From: Escherichia phage SonjaBuckley_Bas74
DNA: 43,096 nucleotides
Sequence record: PQ850627.1
Direction: 5' to 3' (one strand)
The notes beneath the pieces were generated by a model, which did no database searches, had not been told where the DNA came from, and worked only from the letters and a program-made list of their open reading frames with translations. The translations under genes were made by a program, and so were the position numbers. This document shows, one piece after another, positions 4,882 through 30,063 of this stretch (position 1 is its first letter; every line of letters begins with the position of its first letter).

Positions 4882-4908
4882 AAGGCCCCATTATGGGGCC
4901 TTAGTTTT
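4882..4908. terminator. bidirectional intrinsic terminator
   Basis: GGCCCCA-TTA-TGGGGCC hairpin with A-run upstream and T-run downstream, between convergent genes. Confidence 0.65.
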
Positions 4909-5111
4909 CAACGGAATCTTGTGTTTAAATCCTGCTCATGGACAACCCTCAGAACAGTGTCATAATCCCCGTATCTTCCAGGTTCAAATATATCTAATGC
5001 CTTGTAAGCAGACATTGCGTCAGGGAAAACCTGCAGAACCTTTTTAACCCGGCACAAGTCACCGTCGAACTCTTCATCGAACTCTTGAACTACTTCGCAA
5101 ATTGCATACAT
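4908..5111 (-). CDS. hypothetical protein (antisense moron, 67 aa)
   Basis: ATG with strong SD AGGAGGTG 5 nt upstream; own promoter TTGCAC-N17-TACTAT at 5139-5167; terminator hairpin at its 3' end. Confidence 0.55.
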   Translation of the reverse strand: MYAICEVVQEFDEEFDGDLCRVKKVLQVFPDAMSAYKALDIFEPGRYGDYDTVLRVVHEQDLNTRFR

Positions 5112-5485: not shown

Positions 5486-5872
5486 ATGAATCTTAAAGCA
5501 ACTGTCGTAGCAGGAGCATGTTTCATCATCCTGGTTTACGCACACGGCATCTACCAGTATCGCAGCGGATGGAACGAAGGCCGGGCTAATCTCGTTTCGC
5601 AGCAACAGCAGAAAGCACAGGCTGAGTTAGCGAAGAAAACACAACGGCAGCAGCAGGATGAATCGAAGGCCGCCGCCGCTGACAACGAAGGCAAGACGAA
5701 ATCAGAGGTGATTACCCGTGAAGTCGTTAAGTACATTAAAACGCCTGGTCGCAGCGTGTGCACTTTTGACCCTGAGCGCGTGCAGCTCAAGTCCCGCGCC
5801 GTCGCCAACGCCAATTCCATCCCCGGATACGACGATGATGCAGCCGCCGTGCAAACTGGCGCAGCCAAGTAG
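5486..5872 (+). CDS. i-spanin (Rz-like)
   Basis: N-terminal TMD ATVVAGACFIILVYAHGIY followed by Q/K/E-rich coiled-coil region; contains an overlapping +1 frame lipoprotein ORF. Confidence 0.65.
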   Translation: MNLKATVVAGACFIILVYAHGIYQYRSGWNEGRANLVSQQQQKAQAELAKKTQRQQQDESKAAAADNEGKTKSEVITREVVKYIKTPGRSVCTFDPERVQLKSRAVANANSIPGYDDDAAAVQTGAAK

Positions 5873-5981
5873 CGACGCTGATGAGGATTTGGCCGTCGAC
5901 GTTCAGAATGCTGAATGCGTACGGCAACTGAGACTGAAAGTGTTCATGTTGCAGGATTACGTGAGGAATATTCTGGAATAG
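5718..5981 (+). CDS. o-spanin (Rz1-like outer membrane lipoprotein)
   Basis: +1 frame relative to the i-spanin, overlapping its 3' half; signal peptide with lipobox LSAC; proline-rich mature part SSSPAPSPTPIPSP. Confidence 0.65.
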   Translation: MKSLSTLKRLVAACALLTLSACSSSPAPSPTPIPSPDTTMMQPPCKLAQPSSDADEDLAVDVQNAECVRQLRLKVFMLQDYVRNILE

Positions 5982-10848: not shown

Positions 10849-12015
10849 ATGGCTACAACTCCTTTTAAGGGCGCGAATACCGCGCAATTCTATGTGGCGG
10901 AAGTGACCCCGGGTGTAACACCGACTAACCCGGTCTGGTCACCATTACGTAACACGGGCGGTGTTCCTGCCATTACCCGTGACACACTGACCTCCAACGA
11001 ACTCGACGGCAGCCGTGAAACTACATCCATCCGCACCGGTAACAAACAGGTTAGCGGTGAATACGCAATTGAGCTTAGCTCTAAAAGCCAGGATGACTGG
11101 CTAGCCGGGGCTTTAGGCTCTACGTGGCAGGCTGGCGTATCTCTGTCAGGGCTATCGATTACCGTCGCACCGGCTGGCAAGACGTTCACACGTGCCACCG
11201 GCAGCTTTATCACTGACGGAGTTGGGGTAGGCGACCTGATTGCGTTTACCGATTTAACTGGCGATAATGCAAAACCATTTATTGTTACTGCAGTAACGGC
11301 TACGGTTGTTACTGGTGCAGGCATCCAACACACCCTGACCACCGAGACAAAAACTAGTAAGGCTAAAACTGGCGACACGCTGGAAACCGGTAATACGTGT
11401 AAGACGTTCTCTATCCTTACCTGGTACAAAGGCCAGTGCGGCGGTACTGACGCGTACACGTTAACCAAAGGCGTGGAAGTTTCTGGTTTTACCATCGAAC
11501 AGGCTGTTAACGCGATGGTAACTGGCAGCTTCCCATTCATCGGTCGCAGTCAGGAGATTCTCACCACGCCGCCGACCGGTTCCAACTTCTCATCTGTTAC
11601 TTTTGGTGATGAGCCGTTTTCTTCGGTTGACGTTTCCGTGTTCGATGGCTCCACGCCGTTGCGTTGCGACAGCCTGACCATCACCAACGACAACAGCGCA
11701 TCCGCGCAGTTCGAACTCGGCAACACTAACGTAGCGTTTGTAGAACGTAGCCGCGCGGCTAACACCTTCTCCATCTCCGGCAAGCTGTATGACATGGCGA
11801 TGATTCAGAAGTTTATCAACGAGCAGCAGGTAGAGATTAACTCTATTCTGGCGGGGGTAAACGGGGCTATGTCTTTCAGTTTGAAACGTGCGGAGCTTAC
11901 GGCAGTTACCCCAGAGATTGGCGGACCTGAGTCAATCACTCAGTCCATTGAAGGCCAGGCTACTGGCAACCAGTACCAGTCGTCTATTGTTATTCAGCGT
12001 ATCACCTACGCATAA
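10849..12015 (+). CDS. major tail protein (putative)
   Basis: ATG at 10849 with AAGAGG SD (ORF track GTG start at 10843); 388 aa; followed by bidirectional terminator; position before chaperone and tape measure. Confidence 0.5.
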   Translation: MATTPFKGANTAQFYVAEVTPGVTPTNPVWSPLRNTGGVPAITRDTLTSNELDGSRETTSIRTGNKQVSGEYAIELSSKSQDDWLAGALGSTWQAGVSLSGLSITVAPAGKTFTRATGSFITDGVGVGDLIAFTDLTGDNAKPFIVTAVTATVVTGAGIQHTLTTETKTSKAKTGDTLETGNTCKTFSILTWYKGQCGGTDAYTLTKGVEVSGFTIEQAVNAMVTGSFPFIGRSQEILTTPPTGSNFSSVTFGDEPFSSVDVSVFDGSTPLRCDSLTITNDNSASAQFELGNTNVAFVERSRAANTFSISGKLYDMAMIQKFINEQQVEINSILAGVNGAMSFSLKRAELTAVTPEIGGPESITQSIEGQATGNQYQSSIVIQRITYA

Positions 12016-12019
12016 AACT

Positions 12020-12045
12020 AAGGCCCCGAAAGGGGCCTTTTTTAT
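12020..12045. terminator. bidirectional intrinsic terminator
   Basis: AAGGCCCC-GAAA-GGGGCCTT followed by TTTTTT; between convergent major tail gene and moron operon. Confidence 0.7.
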
Positions 12046-12275
12046 TACTCATCAATGTTACTCCTGTACTCCCGTAACTTTTCCAGACTTTCAATTGCTT
12101 CCGCTAAGTCGGTTCCGGTGTCCTTGTGTCCACGTAAACCCATGCACAATAGCTTCTTCAATGCGTGCTGTAACGCCGGGTCGCGGATGTCGAAAGCGCG
12201 GAGCACATCATAAACGTCTACTGTCATAGTGCTGCCGTGAGTATTTGTCATTGTGCGGTTGTATTTTGAAGTCAT
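12045..12275 (-). CDS. hypothetical protein (moron operon, 76 aa)
   Basis: Start overlaps stop of upstream gene (ATGA); ends at bidirectional terminator. Confidence 0.5.
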   Translation of the reverse strand: MTSKYNRTMTNTHGSTMTVDVYDVLRAFDIRDPALQHALKKLLCMGLRGHKDTGTDLAEAIESLEKLREYRSNIDE

Positions 12276-13402
12276 CCCAGCATCTCCGGTGAAATAGTTA
12301 AACGTGCGACCTCGCCATATTCGGCGCTATAAGTAATTACGTTTGCGCTACGCCCAGACATCCATCCGCCGCGCGAGGCGTAGGCGTCTTTCGCCGCTAA
12401 GGTGCGGTGTTGCTCAACAATCATGTTACGGCTTTCTACAATCTTCTGGTGGTGCAGATGGCCTACGTGGGCGTAGCTGTAAACACTCTCGCCGAACGCT
12501 TTACGGAACTTGGCAATCATAACCGGTTCGATAGCGTCGAATCGTGCTTTATGCCCGTGATGGAAGAACAGCGTCGTTTTGCCGTGTTGCACCATCTTAT
12601 AAACATCCGGCGACGTATCGACGAATACACGAGGCTCGTTGTCGTACAGTGTGCTGAACATCTCCGCCAGCCAAATCATTCCGCTTTCGTCGTGGTTCCC
12701 TTGCACTATAAGCAAGCGAACATTTTTATGCTTAACCAGTGCCATATCTACAACACGGCGCACCATACGAATCATGTAGCGAACAAGTTTTTGGTAGCGA
12801 GTGTCCGCGTCAAGGGCGTGACCGCTTGCTGGCGTAACGGCAACCAGACTATCGAAGTGCGCGAAGTCACCTAACAGGTTAATAACTCCAGTTCCTGCAT
12901 CCGGTGCTTTCTGAAACGCCGCGTCGAACCAGCGGGAGAACAGGTCTTCCGCAATCTTCATGTCCCAGTCGTCGCCGCTCTCGTCGGCCCAGGCCAGCAT
13001 ACCGAGATGAAAATCAGATACCGTGTAAAGATTGAGTAGCTTGCCGTCGCGTTTGGCGCGTGCTGCTTTAACAGGGGCGACTGGTGTAATCTCTGATTTC
13101 ATTCCTTCGATTACGGCTTTCATCAACTCGACCTGACGTTCGGCATCGGTGTCTGTCTTAACCCATTGCAACTTAGTGTTGCCGAACTCGTCCACAAGTG
13201 ACGACGTTCCTTTAATCTTGTAGCCATCTGGCACAAGGTGACTAACGTCACGTCCGTGGCCTACGCCTTTCTTAGCCAGCTTCGCTTTACGGATACGAAT
13301 AACGCGGTCTGAGATGCCGTATTTACGGGCGATGTCTACATTCTTCATCCCGGCGTTCAATTCTTCCTGTAACTGTTCGTCGGTTATTTTCTTCTGGGCC
13401 AT
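12272..13402 (-). CDS. metallophosphoesterase (calcineurin/Mre11-SbcD-like) with N-terminal HTH
   Basis: Motifs SDFHLG, LLGDFAHFD, VQGNHDE, FFHHGHKA, VGHLHH match the phosphoesterase motif series; N-terminal KNVDIARKYGISDRVIRIRKAKL is HTH-like; GAGGAAG SD. Confidence 0.65.
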   Translation of the reverse strand: MAQKKITDEQLQEELNAGMKNVDIARKYGISDRVIRIRKAKLAKKGVGHGRDVSHLVPDGYKIKGTSSLVDEFGNTKLQWVKTDTDAERQVELMKAVIEGMKSEITPVAPVKAARAKRDGKLLNLYTVSDFHLGMLAWADESGDDWDMKIAEDLFSRWFDAAFQKAPDAGTGVINLLGDFAHFDSLVAVTPASGHALDADTRYQKLVRYMIRMVRRVVDMALVKHKNVRLLIVQGNHDESGMIWLAEMFSTLYDNEPRVFVDTSPDVYKMVQHGKTTLFFHHGHKARFDAIEPVMIAKFRKAFGESVYSYAHVGHLHHQKIVESRNMIVEQHRTLAAKDAYASRGGWMSGRSANVITYSAEYGEVARLTISPEMLG

Positions 13403-13441
13403 GCTTTACTTCCTCGTGTTTAGGATTTGTCCTATACTAGC

Positions 13442-13633
13442 TCACTTCTCGTTAACATTCGAGTTGCAGGCCCAGATTAAAATAAATACCCACGGCAGCA
13501 GAACCCAACCAAGAAACAGATTAGCCATGAATATCGCTAATTTCGCTTTATGGTTGCGGAAGTATGCAACCAAGAAAGGTGCGAAATAGGCGAGCAGTGC
13601 AAACAGAATTAAGGAAACTGGTAAACTTGACAT
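13442..13633 (-). CDS. superinfection immunity-like small membrane protein
   Basis: Likely start at second ATG (AAGGGG SD); sequence YFAPFLVAYFRNHKAKLAIFMANLFLGWVLLPWVFILIWA resembles the Imm superinfection-immunity family pattern; two predicted TMDs. Confidence 0.55.
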   Translation of the reverse strand: MSSLPVSLILFALLAYFAPFLVAYFRNHKAKLAIFMANLFLGWVLLPWVFILIWACNSNVNEK

Positions 13634-13663
13634 TTTAAACCCCTTCATTGTTGGTGTAAGCGA

Positions 13664-13692
13664 ATAGTACCCTATTATATTGGGGTGTGCAA
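13664..13692 (-). promoter_or_regulatory. sigma70-type promoter TTGCAC-N17-TACTAT for Imm-phosphoesterase moron operon
   Basis: Identical 31-bp sequence to 5137-5167; located 16 nt upstream of ORF start at 13648. Confidence 0.55.
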
Positions 13693-13799
13693 GTAATGTG
13701 ATAGAATAATTTTGCGCCTAGTGTCGCACACGAAAAGCGGGTGGTTCCCGTCTGGCGCGTCAATCTTAACCTGTAACCTCTTAACCAAAGGATTAAAGA

Positions 13800-14216
13800 A
13801 TGAAACTTTCTGATTTTTATTTCGAAGAGAAAGCGCTGGTAGGCAAGAAGATGCCGATTCTCCTGCCGAATGGCGAAGACTCCGGTGAGTGGCTTAACGT
13901 TGTAAGCCCGGATGCGGATGCCGCCGTTAAAGCGGGGCGTGCTTTCATTATCGCGTACCGTCGCGGACTGGCGCGTTTCGAAGAACTGGAAAAAGCTGCC
14001 AAAGAATCCGGCGACTATACTGAATATAACCTGGCGGTTAACGAACTGGCCGAAGACCTCAACCGGCAACTTGCAGCAGAAGTAGTAAACGGCTGGAGCT
14101 TTGACGAGCCTTTCTCTAAGGAAGCGTTTAGTAAATTGCTCGACCAGTTCAAGGCATTAGGCACACAAGTAGCGGCGTTCCATAACGCCGAGCGCAAAGC
14201 ATTACAGGAAAAGTAG
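13800..14216 (+). CDS. tail assembly chaperone (gpG-like)
   Basis: 138 aa acidic ORF directly upstream of tape measure; -1 frame is open across its 3' end. Confidence 0.55.
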   Translation: MKLSDFYFEEKALVGKKMPILLPNGEDSGEWLNVVSPDADAAVKAGRAFIIAYRRGLARFEELEKAAKESGDYTEYNLAVNELAEDLNRQLAAEVVNGWSFDEPFSKEAFSKLLDQFKALGTQVAAFHNAERKALQEK

Positions 14217-14581
14217 ACGCGCTGTACAGGTTCGCCACCTACGAGTTCGTCGATAAGCATAAAATCAGAGAGTTTGATTCTATAGCTGACGGACACGAAC
14301 AGGCGCTTATCGCGATGGGTGTAATCGATAAGAAAAAACGTGCAGCGCGACGGGGTGGGCCAGAATGCCCGCCCCTTTTTATATCCACCTTTGAGACGTA
14401 TTGCGACATTAAGTTTACGCGACACGTGCGCGAGGACGCTGTAGTATTGTTTGCAAGAGAATCCGTTACGTGGCAAGACCTGAAAGCCTATCTCGATGTT
14501 ACGCAAAAACAGCTTAGCCTGTTCGAGATAGACATTATCATGGGCTTAGAAGCAATCTTTGAAGGTAGAAATCATGGCTGA
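14186..14581 (+). CDS. tail assembly chaperone -1 frameshift extension (gpGT-like, putative)
   Basis: -1 frame open from 14186 to 14581, overlapping the last 10 codons of the chaperone; GGAAAAG immediately before the TAG stop; ends just inside tape measure start. Confidence 0.4.
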   Translation, partial: RRAQSITGKVDALYRFATYEFVDKHKIREFDSIADGHEQALIAMGVIDKKKRAARRGGPECPPLFISTFETYCDIKFTRHVREDAVVLFARESVTWQDLKAYLDVTQKQLSLFEIDIIMGLEAIFEGRNHG

Positions 14582-27882: not shown

Positions 27883-30063
27883 CTACTTGGCGTATCTGTA
27901 CATTTCGCTACCTTCTGCTACAAGAGGGAACCCCTCCGCCCATTCCGGTAATTCACACATCAACCGCTCAAGCTCTGCAACATTGTATTCCGGTAAATCA
28001 GGTGTCTCGCAGATAATCTCATCGTGTACGTGAAGTACAATCGGGTAGCCGTTTGCTTCTACGTTCAGCAGGGCATTAGCCAGCAAATCACGGCACAATG
28101 CCTGAGTGCAGTTTTCCACCAGTTTACCCGAGTAGGTGTACTGGAACCCCCACTGACGGGTTAGCTGATTTTCGCCCTGGTACTTAATGCGCACGTTAGT
28201 AGACACTTTTCCATCTTCGTCTGTTTCTTTCGACACGCTCAACCCGACGCCCGGATAAGACATAACGCGACCCGACGGCAACGTCATGCGCAACCACCAG
28301 CCGGCGACTTTGTTGCCGTTGTTGTCTGTCTCTACGTTGCGCGAAAACTTAACCCCCCTAGGCCCCGCGGTGAACTCTTTACCTGGATTGCGGATAGCGG
28401 CCATAGCTGCGTCTTCAATATCTCGCCAGAAAGCTACTGTTTCAGGGTGTGACTCTCGCCACATACGCTTGATAGCGTCACAGGTACGCCACACTTTCTT
28501 ATCAAGAATATACGATGGTCGGTCATCCTTCTCCCCGGGTCGCGGCGGTCGCTTGGCTTCCTGAATACGTGCCCATTCATAGCCGCGTGCAGTAGCCGCC
28601 CAGATGTGGTCCGGGAAAGTACCGTCCATTGTTTTTGACATATCAACAAGGTCAAGTCCGAGGTTCTTAGCAAACTGAACGAAAGCGCCAACACCACCAG
28701 CGTAGCCGAGGCCAAGCTCGCAGGCTTTACCAATCTGGCGCAAGTCTTTGCGTTCCTTCTTAATGTAATCCGGCTCCATGCCGAACATCTTACCCGCGGT
28801 TACACAGTAAATGTCCAGCCCGGCGCGGAACGTATCTAGCGCGGTTTCTTCGCCTGCCAGCCACGCAAGCCCCCGACCTTCAACGTTAGAGTAATCGGCG
28901 ACGACAAACTTTTTTCCGGCTTCCGGGATAATGCAGCTACGCACCGTCGATGCCGTTAGCTTAGCGACATCGAAACGGCGATGCGCGCGGCCCTTAAGTA
29001 ACGCTGAAATACCTTTATCCAGTTCATCATCGTGATAGTACCCACGCGCGAGGTTCTGCGGCTGAAATCCTTTACCGGCAAATCGTAATGTACGCTTGGC
29101 TCCGCCGTACTGAATGCAACCACGACGGCGGTCGTCCGACGAGCGCCCTAACAGCAGCGGGTTATATTTCGTTGACGCTGTGGACGCGGCCCCGAGGCGC
29201 ATTTCGATAATCGTGCGTGCGTCGTCCGGTAAATCATCATCCGCCAACAGGTCGTTAAGCGTAGACTTCTGCGCGTTGTGGATGCGGTGCGCTGGTGCAA
29301 GTTCACGCAGAATCGGCAGGAAGTCTTTACCAGTAAGCGAGCCGCCGTATTTGCGCTGTGCTTCTTCCTGTAGCTGGGCCTTGTGTTTTTCCACGGCTTC
29401 AATCGCGGCTTCCGCCAGCGTCACATCAACCTTAAACCCACGGTCGTTAATCAACTGGTCCAGTTCCAGTACACGGTCTTCGAACTCGGAGTTACCCCAA
29501 CGCGGCAGCTTATGGAAGACTTCACGCATCGCAGTGATGTCGCTCACGGCGTACCTGATGAACATCGCCCACTCGTCAGGGTGAGTTTCTGCGGTGTAGC
29601 GGCGGATTTTGTAGTTCTTCGGCGTCGGTTTAGAGAAACGCTTAATCAGAGCCTTGCCGCGTTTATCTTTCGCGTTGTCTGCAGACACGCCCAGCACTTC
29701 GCACAGCGCATCAAGAGAACCCGGCAGCGCGTGACGGAACGCCCAAATCATAGTATCAATGGTGTTACTTACCGGAATATCAAAGTCCCAGCAGTGTTTC
29801 ATGATTAGGCGATCGAAAAGTCCACCGTTGTGCCACACCATCTTGATGCGGCTGTTGGGCTTAACAAGGCGGCGCAGTGCGCGGTGTAAATCCCCCGGCA
29901 TGTCGCTGCCGTCGGTGCAATCCCATACCCGCACAGGTTCGTCGTCAAAAGCATATGTACAGATAAGCACTTCGGTTGACGGGTGTTCGGCGTAAGCGTA
30001 AGAACCGACTTTCTTCAAATCGGCTTCTGAGAATGTTTCAAAGTCTAAGAACAGGTAACTCAT
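27883..30063 (-). CDS. DNA polymerase I family (family A) with N-terminal 3'-5' exonuclease domain
   Basis: N-terminal FLDFETFS exonuclease motif; C-terminal RQIGKACELGLGYAGG and VLHVHDEIICE polymerase motifs; 726 aa. Confidence 0.85.
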   Translation of the reverse strand: MSYLFLDFETFSEADLKKVGSYAYAEHPSTEVLICTYAFDDEPVRVWDCTDGSDMPGDLHRALRRLVKPNSRIKMVWHNGGLFDRLIMKHCWDFDIPVSNTIDTMIWAFRHALPGSLDALCEVLGVSADNAKDKRGKALIKRFSKPTPKNYKIRRYTAETHPDEWAMFIRYAVSDITAMREVFHKLPRWGNSEFEDRVLELDQLINDRGFKVDVTLAEAAIEAVEKHKAQLQEEAQRKYGGSLTGKDFLPILRELAPAHRIHNAQKSTLNDLLADDDLPDDARTIIEMRLGAASTASTKYNPLLLGRSSDDRRRGCIQYGGAKRTLRFAGKGFQPQNLARGYYHDDELDKGISALLKGRAHRRFDVAKLTASTVRSCIIPEAGKKFVVADYSNVEGRGLAWLAGEETALDTFRAGLDIYCVTAGKMFGMEPDYIKKERKDLRQIGKACELGLGYAGGVGAFVQFAKNLGLDLVDMSKTMDGTFPDHIWAATARGYEWARIQEAKRPPRPGEKDDRPSYILDKKVWRTCDAIKRMWRESHPETVAFWRDIEDAAMAAIRNPGKEFTAGPRGVKFSRNVETDNNGNKVAGWWLRMTLPSGRVMSYPGVGLSVSKETDEDGKVSTNVRIKYQGENQLTRQWGFQYTYSGKLVENCTQALCRDLLANALLNVEANGYPIVLHVHDEIICETPDLPEYNVAELERLMCELPEWAEGFPLVAEGSEMYRYAK

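What the first reader, a model, noticed from the sequence alone, without database searches (positions are those of the whole stretch)
12045..13692. Antisense three-gene moron inside the tail module: Imm-like membrane protein, HTH-metallophosphoesterase and a small ORF under their own promoter
Between the major tail gene and the tail assembly chaperone, three translationally coupled minus-strand genes are embedded in an otherwise plus-strand structural block. They are bracketed by a bidirectional terminator (12020-12045) and a sigma70-type promoter (13664-13692). The first product resembles the superinfection-immunity small membrane protein family. The second carries the full calcineurin/Mre11-SbcD phosphoesterase motif series fused to an N-terminal HTH-like segment, an unusual architecture. 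A membrane exclusion protein co-transcribed with a DNA-binding phosphoesterase or nuclease suggests a phage-carried superinfection-exclusion or anti-defense unit rather than a morphogenesis function. That functional reading is inference.
Basis: partly seen in the sequence, partly recalled or inferred. Interest (0 to 1): 0.8.

Follow-up and report, generated by a model that had tools for sequence, protein, structure and literature searches.

The report
Antisense accessory gene island in tail module
Three backward-facing genes between two tail genes of this E. coli phage are real, but they are three independently swappable accessory genes that are already seen and annotated in hundreds of related phages, not one new defence device.

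Summary
Three minus-strand genes lie between the tail tube gene and the tail assembly chaperone gene of a Kagunavirus genome. They are Imm (63-68 aa), an HTH-metallophosphoesterase (376 aa) and a 76-aa ORF. A conserved bidirectional terminator and a promoter-like region bracket them.

The site is a variable accessory hot spot. In relatives it is empty, or holds only a small envelope protein, or holds this cassette with other cargo. One complete relative (Serratia phage Smarc3) has no phosphoesterase at all.

The three genes do not behave as one unit:
- Imm is replaced by an exported 108-aa protein in a third of the cassettes.
- The 76-aa gene alternates with a PNKP phosphatase plus P-loop kinase, HNH endonucleases or an Ant-like protein.
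- The HTH-phosphoesterase is not an unusual architecture. It is the phage T1 gp16 family (PHROG 704), found full-length in about 1,950 phage genomes of many families, usually among DNA-metabolism or lysis genes.

Its fold is closest to Mre11/SbcD and PolD-DP1 nucleases. It is repeatedly linked to PNKP, DNA ligase and 5'-3' exonuclease genes. The best reading is a DNA-binding nuclease or phosphodiesterase of phage DNA end-processing, with no biochemical evidence. Novelty is low: already annotated, function uncharacterised.

The parts
12020..12039 (.). Bidirectional intrinsic terminator hairpin (8-bp stem, GAAA loop). It ends both the tail tube transcript (+) and the island transcript (-).
   Evidence: Scored on both strands. 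The stem is invariant in phage 26, fEg-Eco19, SETP7 and K1ind2.
12045..12275 (-). 76-aa protein of unknown function (PHROG 2452). It is the interchangeable 3' cargo of the island, and its start overlaps the MPE stop (ATGA).
   Evidence: phrog_2452 E 2e-36, no Pfam, NCBIfam or PADLOC family. Found in 767 phage records. It occurs as a stand-alone early-region gene in a Drexlerviridae phage and as the C-terminal part of a 186-aa protein in Acinetobacter phage LZ35. Other genes replace it in relatives.
12272..13402 (-). HTH-metallophosphoesterase of the T1 gp16 / PHROG 704 family ('DNA repair exonuclease'), 376 aa.
13271..13381 (-). N-terminal three-helix HTH domain of the MPE protein (aa 8-44).
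13091..13222 (-). Linker module of the MPE protein: a beta-hairpin (aa 61-85) plus a helix (aa 87-104), with family-invariant S67, G74, Q79 and W80.
   Evidence: No separate structural match was identified.
12275..13048 (-). Catalytic metallophosphoesterase domain (aa 119-376). It has conserved family-specific loops at aa 135-146, 186-202 and 336-349.
13410..13415 (-). Ribosome-binding site GAGGAA, 7 nt upstream of the MPE start codon.
   Evidence: Read directly from the sequence.
13442..13648 (-). Imm-family small inner-membrane protein with two transmembrane segments. The likely real start is 13633 (63 aa).
   Evidence: Pfam Imm_superinfect E 9.3e-13, 48.3 bits against a cut-off of 27.9. phrog_1039 'immunity to superinfection' E 1e-22. 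Two hydropathy peaks at aa 9-29 and 37-62. Weak tblastn link to Imm genes of T4-like phages.
13664..13702 (-). Promoter-like region for the island. TTGCAC-17-TACTAT (13692->13664) is conserved across genera. It overlaps ATCACA-17-TATAAT (13702->13674).

Best explanation
The segment is an independently transcribed antisense accessory island. It sits at a recombination hot spot between the tail tube and tail-assembly-chaperone genes of a virulent Kagunavirus. It is a composite of three separately mobile genes that share one promoter and one terminator. They share these because non-structural genes placed inside the late operon need their own expression, not because they form one machine.

Slot 1 encodes an Imm-family two-pass inner-membrane protein. 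It probably blocks DNA entry of superinfecting phages; this is inferred from T4 Imm.

Slot 2 encodes a T1 gp16-family protein. An N-terminal resolvase/LuxR-type HTH tethers a di-metal phosphoesterase domain of the Mre11/SbcD/PolD-DP1 kind to DNA. It most likely acts as a DNA phosphodiesterase or nuclease in phage DNA end-processing or repair. In other phages this role sits next to a PNKP phosphatase, a kinase, a DNA ligase and a 5'-3' exonuclease.

Slot 3 holds a small PHROG 2452 protein of unknown role, one of several interchangeable cargos.

Shown: the gene content, the family assignments, the folds and the variability. Inferred: Imm function, the MPE substrate and expression timing.
For: Hot spot:
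- In 74 tube-anchored relatives the tube-to-chaperone gap ranges from 94 nt (empty) to 3.1 kb. 33 lack MPE, and one has Imm alone.
- The smaller inserts are mostly antisense genes for membrane or exported proteins.
- Serratia phage Smarc3 has the same backbone but no MPE anywhere.
- Two relatives carry an MPE that is 83-84% identical elsewhere in the genome. In the one examined (L046) it is antisense in the head module.

Independent slots:
- Imm alternates with an exported phrog_14165 protein.
- The 3' cargo alternates among the 76-aa ORF, a 66-aa ORF plus the 76-aa ORF, HAD_PNKP phosphatase plus P-loop kinase, HNH endonuclease and an Ant-like protein.
- In phage celemicas the MPE is only 55% identical while the 76-aa ORF is 91% identical.

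MPE family:
- Full-length PHROG 704 match, present in 2041 phage records.
- Found in T1, Dhillonvirus, Bonnellvirus, Vibrio and Rhodobacter phages, next to Dam, helicase, SSB, exonuclease or lysis genes.
- Catalytic residues are invariant.
- MPE is followed by PNKP phosphatase, P-loop kinase and ATP-dependent DNA ligase in 4 of 49 diverse loci. A PNKP phosphatase follows within two genes in 6 of 49, and a 5'-3' exonuclease lies upstream in 8.

Expression: a published Kagunavirus transcriptome places the Imm gene in a different temporal class from the capsid and tail genes (PMC12645636). This is weak evidence.
Against: - No biochemical or genetic data exist for any member of the MPE family in the literature I could search.
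- Foldseek ranks the cyclic-nucleotide phosphodiesterase Rv0805 first.
- Most diverse MPE loci (about 85%) show no PNKP or ligase neighbour.
- The window itself has no PNKP or ligase.
- No Rad50/SbcC partner and no capping domain were seen.
- Imm function outside T4 is untested.
- Promoter use and timing are not measured for this phage.
Confidence: 0.6

Rival explanations
1. One reading: Imm and the HTH-phosphoesterase act together as a phage-carried superinfection-exclusion or anti-defence unit. The membrane protein blocks entry, and the nuclease destroys incoming DNA or a host defence component.
For: The two genes are co-transcribed from one promoter-like region to one terminator. Imm family membership is solid. 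The island is dispensable and variable, as morons are.
Against: MPE occurs without Imm in 13 of 40 cassettes and in roughly 1,700 genomes of other phage families, in DNA-metabolism contexts. One locus has Imm without MPE (L118). An unrelated exported protein takes Imm's place. There is no PADLOC match. Kagunaviruses remain highly sensitive to restriction-modification systems and variably sensitive to Old (PMC11990801).
Confidence: 0.1
2. The phosphoesterase degrades a nucleotide second messenger (cyclic mono-, di- or oligonucleotides). In that role it would be an anti-CBASS, anti-Pycsar or anti-Thoeris style counter-defence enzyme.
For: The top Foldseek hit is the class III cyclic-nucleotide phosphodiesterase Rv0805 (E 5.6e-8). 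The family is very widespread in virulent phages.
Confidence: 0.1
3. The protein is mainly a transcription factor. Its HTH would control late or lysis genes, and the phosphoesterase domain would act as a regulatory or sensor module.
For: The HTH resembles LuxR and sigma region 4. There is a weak match to PHROG 836 'late transcriptional activator' (E 9e-4). The gene lies next to lysis genes in T1, vojen, Dhillonvirus and RcAqua. In the window it lies beside a strongly conserved intergenic element upstream of the chaperone/tape-measure operon.
Against: All catalytic metal ligands are invariant across the 77 aligned sequences, which argues for enzymatic activity. Smarc3 has the same late-gene backbone and lacks the gene.
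Confidence: 0.1
4. The phosphoesterase is an RNA (tRNA) end-healing enzyme. It would work with PNKP-type kinase and phosphatase against host anticodon nucleases, like the phosphoesterase module of bacterial Pnkp.
For: In K1G-type Kagunaviruses a HAD_PNKP phosphatase follows the MPE, with its start overlapping the MPE stop, and a P-loop kinase follows that. A PNKP phosphatase gene follows MPE in podophage loci as well.
Against: The window lacks PNKP, a kinase and a ligase. Where a ligase is present it is an ATP-dependent DNA ligase with a DNA-ligase OB domain. The HTH points to DNA. Most MPE loci lack PNKP.
Confidence: 0.1

Closest known systems
Phage T1 gp16 (ST16) / PHROG 704 'DNA repair exonuclease', annotated as calcineurin-like phosphoesterase in K1G, K1ind, SETP3 and RP180
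   Same: Same family and same full-length architecture: HTH, beta-hairpin/helix linker, then MPE. The match to the T1-like homolog in phage vojen is 46% identity, and phrog_704 scores E 1e-166. In K1G and K1ind the protein is 97-99% identical and sits in the same cassette position.
   Different: Nothing structural differs. Only the 3' cargo differs: the 76-aa ORF here, against PNKP phosphatase plus P-loop kinase in K1G. No member of the family has a tested function.
Mre11 / SbcD nucleases and the archaeal PolD DP1 exonuclease
   Different: There is no capping domain and no Rad50/SbcC partner in the genome. Sequence identity is only 11-15%. It has an N-terminal HTH instead. Pfam Metallophos scores are below their cut-offs.
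Phage T4 Imm (Pfam Imm_superinfect, PF14373)
   Same: A small protein with two transmembrane segments. The Pfam HMM match is above the curated cut-off. There is a weak direct similarity to the Imm genes of T4-like phages.
   Different: It is shorter (63-68 aa) and is encoded in a siphovirus tail module. Its exclusion activity and target are untested.
Pseudomonas putida MPE in the Lhr-MPE-Exo-Lig repair cluster, and the bacterial Pnkp phosphoesterase module (from my own knowledge of the Shuman-lab literature; only the PDB title 'Nuclease MPE' was seen here)
   Same: A stand-alone metallophosphoesterase genetically linked to end-healing and sealing enzymes. Four phage loci have MPE, PNKP phosphatase, kinase and DNA ligase in a row. 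One database entry names the phage protein after PDB 'Nuclease MPE'.
   Different: The sequence match to 6nvo is only at the GNHD motif (E 2.2). The phage protein has an HTH and is about 160 aa longer. The window lacks the partner enzymes.
Morons and superinfection-exclusion genes embedded in tail modules (for example T1 cor)
   Same: An antisense small envelope-protein gene with its own terminator, placed next to tail genes. T1 cor is annotated this way at 29623-29850 (-). It is absent from related genomes.
   Different: Here the island also carries a DNA enzyme that is a common phage gene rather than a host-fitness factor. The phage is virulent.

Membership tests
Imm_superinfect (PF14373, T4 Imm-like) | Match to the family HMM above the curated cut-off | tested here: met
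   48.3 bits against a cut-off of 27.9, E 9.3e-13, covering model positions 2-42 of 42. phrog_1039 E 1e-22.
Imm_superinfect (PF14373, T4 Imm-like) | Small protein with two transmembrane segments | tested here: met
   Kyte-Doolittle 19-residue window above 1.6 at aa 9-29 and 37-62, with the basic loop RNHKAK between them.
Imm_superinfect (PF14373, T4 Imm-like) | Blocks DNA injection of superinfecting phage | not testable with these tools
   Needs plasmid expression and a phage challenge.
Metallophosphoesterase (calcineurin-like) superfamily | Conserved motifs DxH, GD, GNH(D/E), H, GH and GHxH that supply the di-metal ligands | tested here: met
   D130-x-H132, G178-D179, G235-N-H-D238, H281-H-G-H284 and G314-H-L-H317 are invariant in the 4-sequence and 77-sequence alignments.
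Metallophosphoesterase (calcineurin-like) superfamily | Pfam Metallophos or Metallophos_2 score above the gathering threshold | tested here: not met
   21.4 against 27 and 18.9 against 21.5. The family is too divergent for the Pfam models.
Metallophosphoesterase (calcineurin-like) superfamily | Four-layer alpha/beta-beta/alpha phosphoesterase fold | tested here: met
Mre11/SbcD nuclease family | Capping domain C-terminal to the phosphoesterase domain | tested here: not met
Mre11/SbcD nuclease family | Rad50/SbcC ATPase partner encoded alongside | tested here: not met
   No such ORF appears in the 43-kb genome. The large ORFs of the replication block scanned with PHROGs are helicase, DNA polymerase, exonuclease and helicase-primase; the remaining large ORFs lie in the plus-strand structural block.
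T1 gp16 / PHROG 704 HTH-MPE family | Full-length match including the N-terminal HTH and the linker | tested here: met
   phrog_704 covers aa 3-375 against model positions 1-389 of 390. 1956 of 2041 phage hits cover at least 80% of the query.
Moron / accessory island | Own promoter and terminator, inserted between conserved genes | tested here: met
   The promoter is by consensus and conservation only, with no transcript mapping.
Moron / accessory island | Absent from otherwise collinear relatives | tested here: met
   The gap is 94-185 nt in 7 relatives and 33 of 74 lack MPE. Smarc3 lacks MPE genome-wide.
Moron / accessory island | Atypical base composition | tested here: inconclusive
   The Imm region has GC 0.42 against about 0.51 in the flanks. 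The MPE gene is 0.50-0.55, like the rest of the genome.
Known anti-phage defence or candidate defence proteins (PADLOC) | Match to any PADLOC model | tested here: not met
   No family at E<=0.01 for any of the seven proteins tested.
Pnkp-type RNA/DNA end-healing and sealing system | Kinase, phosphatase and ligase present with the phosphoesterase | tested here: not met
   No PNKP phosphatase, kinase or ligase lies in the window's island, and the PHROG scan of the replication block shows none. They are present in K1G-type relatives and in 4 podophage loci.

The most novel reading that the evidence does not exclude
The T1 gp16-type HTH-phosphoesterase is one of the most widespread uncharacterised enzymes of virulent phages, covering about 4% of sequenced phage genomes. 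On this reading it is the nuclease arm of a modular phage nucleic-acid end-repair pathway made of MPE, PNKP phosphatase, kinase and ligase. That pathway would counter host nucleases that leave 3'-phosphate or 5'-OH ends. Kagunaviruses would carry it as a portable antisense cassette that can jump between structural-module junctions.
Probability: 0.2. Interest if true: 0.55.

Novelty: already known. Interest (0 to 1): 0.27.

Why it matters
For this window it matters little. The cassette is a 92-99% identical copy of one already deposited and annotated in many Kagunavirus and Jerseyvirus genomes.

The comparison does yield three useful points:
1. The tube/chaperone junction of Guernseyvirinae is a well-defined hot spot. 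There, virulent phages swap small envelope-targeted genes that are candidates for superinfection exclusion.
2. The HTH-phosphoesterase is dispensable for the backbone, yet it is among the commonest unassigned enzymes of lytic phages.
3. Its repeated linkage to PNKP, ligase and exonuclease genes gives a concrete, testable hypothesis for its role.

Kagunaviruses are small and are now available on E. coli K-12 derivatives (BASEL collection, PMC11990801), so knockouts are feasible.

Tried and rejected
- I first took the 76-aa ORF for a C-terminal remnant of the K1G P-loop ATPase, because its PHROG hits fall on the ends of longer profiles. BLASTP shows no similarity, and the DNA alignment shows a replacement rather than a deletion.
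- I tested whether the small ORFs that follow MPE in Dhillonvirus (gp62) and Bonnellvirus (glasur_30) are homologs of the 76-aa ORF, which would have indicated a conserved partner. Forced alignments give only 21-27% identity, so I rejected this.
- I tested whether the 76-aa ORF is related to the dATP/dGTP diphosphohydrolase N-terminal domain proteins that neighbour MPE in podophages. hhalign probability was 0.2%, so I rejected this.
- Sequence searches of the MPE against PDB, as a single sequence and as a 4-sequence profile, gave only marginal GerE and 'Nuclease MPE' hits.
- The second homolog search, with a 4-sequence profile, returned the same near-identical proteins and was wasted.
- Six literature searches for functional work on this family or cassette found nothing. 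One preprint I opened was irrelevant.
- The conserved intergenic element at 13713-13760 is unique in the genome and does not fold better than shuffled sequence.
- Whether the HTH docks on the active site could not be assessed, because no coordinates or PAE are returned.
Full report
**What the window is.** Megablast of 11500-14500 finds 303 phage records. The nearest is Escherichia phage 26 at 92.6% identity, followed by K1G, K1ind, RP180 and other Kagunavirus (Guernseyvirinae) phages. The 43-kb window looks like a complete genome. Structural genes run on the + strand to about 23.9 kb. A minus-strand replication block follows, with helicase, methylase, endonuclease VII, family-A DNA polymerase, gp2.5-like SSB, exonuclease and helicase-primase.

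**The observation.** The three minus-strand ORFs exist exactly as described.
- MPE (12272-13402) and the 76-aa ORF (12045-12275) overlap by ATGA.
- Imm (13442-13648) is separated from MPE by 39 nt, and MPE has its own GAGGAA ribosome-binding site. Only one junction is therefore translationally coupled.
- Relatives annotate Imm from the inner ATG at 13633 (63 aa), which has the better Shine-Dalgarno sequence.
- The hairpin at 12020-12039 is scored as a terminator on both strands. Its stem is invariant in five relatives.
- The scan tool's best promoter is ATCACA-17-TATAAT (13702->13674). Which site fires is not known.

**Family assignments.**
- Imm matches Pfam Imm_superinfect above the curated cut-off (E 9e-13) and PHROG 1039. 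It has two hydrophobic segments and a weak direct match to the Imm genes of T4-like phages.
- The 376-aa protein scores below the Pfam Metallophos cut-offs. It nevertheless matches PHROG 704 'DNA repair exonuclease' over its full length (E 1e-166). It keeps every metal-ligand motif invariant in 77 aligned sequences, four near-identical to it and 73 at 39-45% identity.
- The 76-aa protein belongs to PHROG 2452 (unknown function). It has no Pfam, NCBIfam or PADLOC family.

**Is the architecture unusual? No.** tblastn finds the protein in 2041 of 50,697 phage records, and 1956 of those hits cover at least 80% of it. An exhaustive HMMER search finds 4635 clusters at 50% identity, mostly 370-420 aa long. 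Homologs include:
- T1 gp16, between dam and the lysis genes;
- Hanrivervirus vojen;
- Dhillonvirus StarDew gp61, after the lysis genes;
- the podophage glasur, in the order DNA polymerase, exonuclease, endonuclease, MPE, then PNK;
- Vibrio phage K121, after SSB and an endonuclease;
- Rhodobacter phage RcAqua.

**Is the cassette variable? Yes, in every slot.** I anchored on the tail tube protein and examined 74 IMG/VR relatives that have both tube and chaperone genes.
- The gap between the two genes ranges from 94 nt to 3.1 kb. 33 relatives lack MPE there, 7 are essentially empty, and one has Imm alone.
- The intermediate inserts are mostly antisense genes for small membrane proteins, lipoproteins or signal-peptide proteins.
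- Of the 40 MPE-bearing gaps, 13 lack Imm. Where I inspected the Imm-less loci, an exported protein of about 108 aa takes its place; in L029 it belongs to phrog_14165.
- Downstream of MPE the cargo is the 76-aa ORF, or a 66-aa ORF plus the 76-aa ORF, or a HAD_PNKP phosphatase plus P-loop kinase, or an HNH endonuclease, or an Ant-like DNA-binding protein, or nothing.
- Mosaicism is visible. In phage celemicas the MPE is 55% identical while the 76-aa ORF is 91% identical.
- Two relatives keep an MPE that is 83-84% identical elsewhere in the genome. In the one I examined (L046) it lies antisense between the Hoc-like gene and the scaffold gene of the head module.
- Serratia phage Smarc3 shares the backbone but has no MPE anywhere.

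Equally, Imm, MPE and the small ORF are not a co-inherited unit.

**What the MPE probably does.** I looked at 49 diverse MPE loci (40-84% identity to the window protein) and clustered the three genes on each side.
- A PNKP-type phosphatase follows MPE, directly or after one small ORF, in 6 loci.
- In four loci (L209, L211, L216, L242) the order is MPE, PNKP phosphatase, P-loop kinase, ATP-dependent DNA ligase. Three of the four also have a 5'-3' exonuclease just upstream.
- Dam methylase and endolysin recur as neighbours in T1-like genomes.
- Pfam confirms HAD_PNKP and DNA_ligase_A_M above their cut-offs.

Taken together with the invariant catalytic residues, the fused HTH and the Mre11/SbcD/DP1-like fold, the most economical reading is a DNA-tethered metal-dependent phosphodiesterase or nuclease used in DNA end-processing or repair. 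This is an inference. No experimental study of any family member turned up. About 85% of the diverse loci show no such neighbours. The window itself has no PNKP or ligase.

**Why the genes share an operon.** A non-structural gene placed inside the late structural block needs its own promoter and terminator, and reading antisense insulates it from the late transcript. A published Kagunavirus time-course puts the Imm gene in a different temporal class from the capsid and tail genes, alongside the DNA polymerase and the methylases (PMC12645636). The resolution of that study is low, so this is weak support.

**Comparison and novelty.** The cassette is already deposited and annotated. K1ind2 RefSeq lists 'immunity to superinfection', 'DNA repair exonuclease', 'polynucleotide kinase' and 'ATP-binding protein'. 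The exact three-gene form is present in phage 26 and SETP7.
- It is a member of the Imm_superinfect family and of the T1 gp16 / PHROG 704 family.
- It is a metallophosphoesterase by motifs and fold.
- It is not an Mre11/SbcD family member: it has no capping domain and no Rad50 partner.
- No product matches PADLOC defence models.

Interest is low for the window itself. There is a modest residual interest in the uncharacterised but very common HTH-phosphoesterase family and in the junction hot spot.

Noticed in passing
window 13713-13760: A stretch of about 45 nt (GCGCCTAGTGTCGCACACGAAAAGCGGGTGGTTCCCGTCTGGCGC) is nearly invariant between Kagunavirus and Jerseyvirus, although the rest of the Imm/chaperone intergenic region diverges. 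It is unique in the genome and does not fold better than shuffled sequence. It may be a restart promoter or regulatory site for the chaperone/tape-measure operon downstream of the 12020-12039 terminator.
   Followed up: partly
window 4908-5111 (-), 5486-5872 (+), 5718-5981 (+): A second antisense ORF (67 aa) sits in the head module between the Hoc-like decoration gene and an apparent spanin pair (the inner ORF has the motif LSAC, read as a lipobox). The spanin reading rests on annotated relatives (L046, Smarc3), not on a scan of the window ORFs. In relative L046 the MPE island occupies this same head-module junction.
   Followed up: partly
L245 (Serratia phage Smarc3) 16575-17064: The GenBank record annotates nothing in the tube/chaperone gap. 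The gap contains a minus-strand ORF that begins with a signal-peptide-like N-terminus (MKIAIAAVLLAVSFSAAAG...). By eye it resembles the exported proteins found at this site in other relatives; I did not test this with a family search.
   Followed up: partly
L209, L211, L216, L242 (IMG/VR podophage-like contigs): A conserved gene string reads MPE, HAD_PNKP phosphatase, P-loop kinase, ATP-dependent DNA ligase; three of the four loci also have a 5'-3' exonuclease just upstream. It looks like a compact end-healing and sealing module that I did not find described in the literature I searched.
   Followed up: partly
window 13800-14216 and 14315-14581; 14352-14375: The tail assembly chaperone gene is followed by a second ORF. 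RefSeq relatives join the two as a programmed-frameshift product. A strong terminator-like hairpin lies inside that second ORF.
   Followed up: no
window 12045-12275 versus L013 2656-3216: The 76-aa PHROG 2452 sequence also occurs as the C-terminal part of a 186-aa protein in Acinetobacter phage LZ35. That suggests it is a portable domain with the motif DVYxVLxxFxxxDPxxQHAxKKLLCxGxRGxKD.
   Followed up: no
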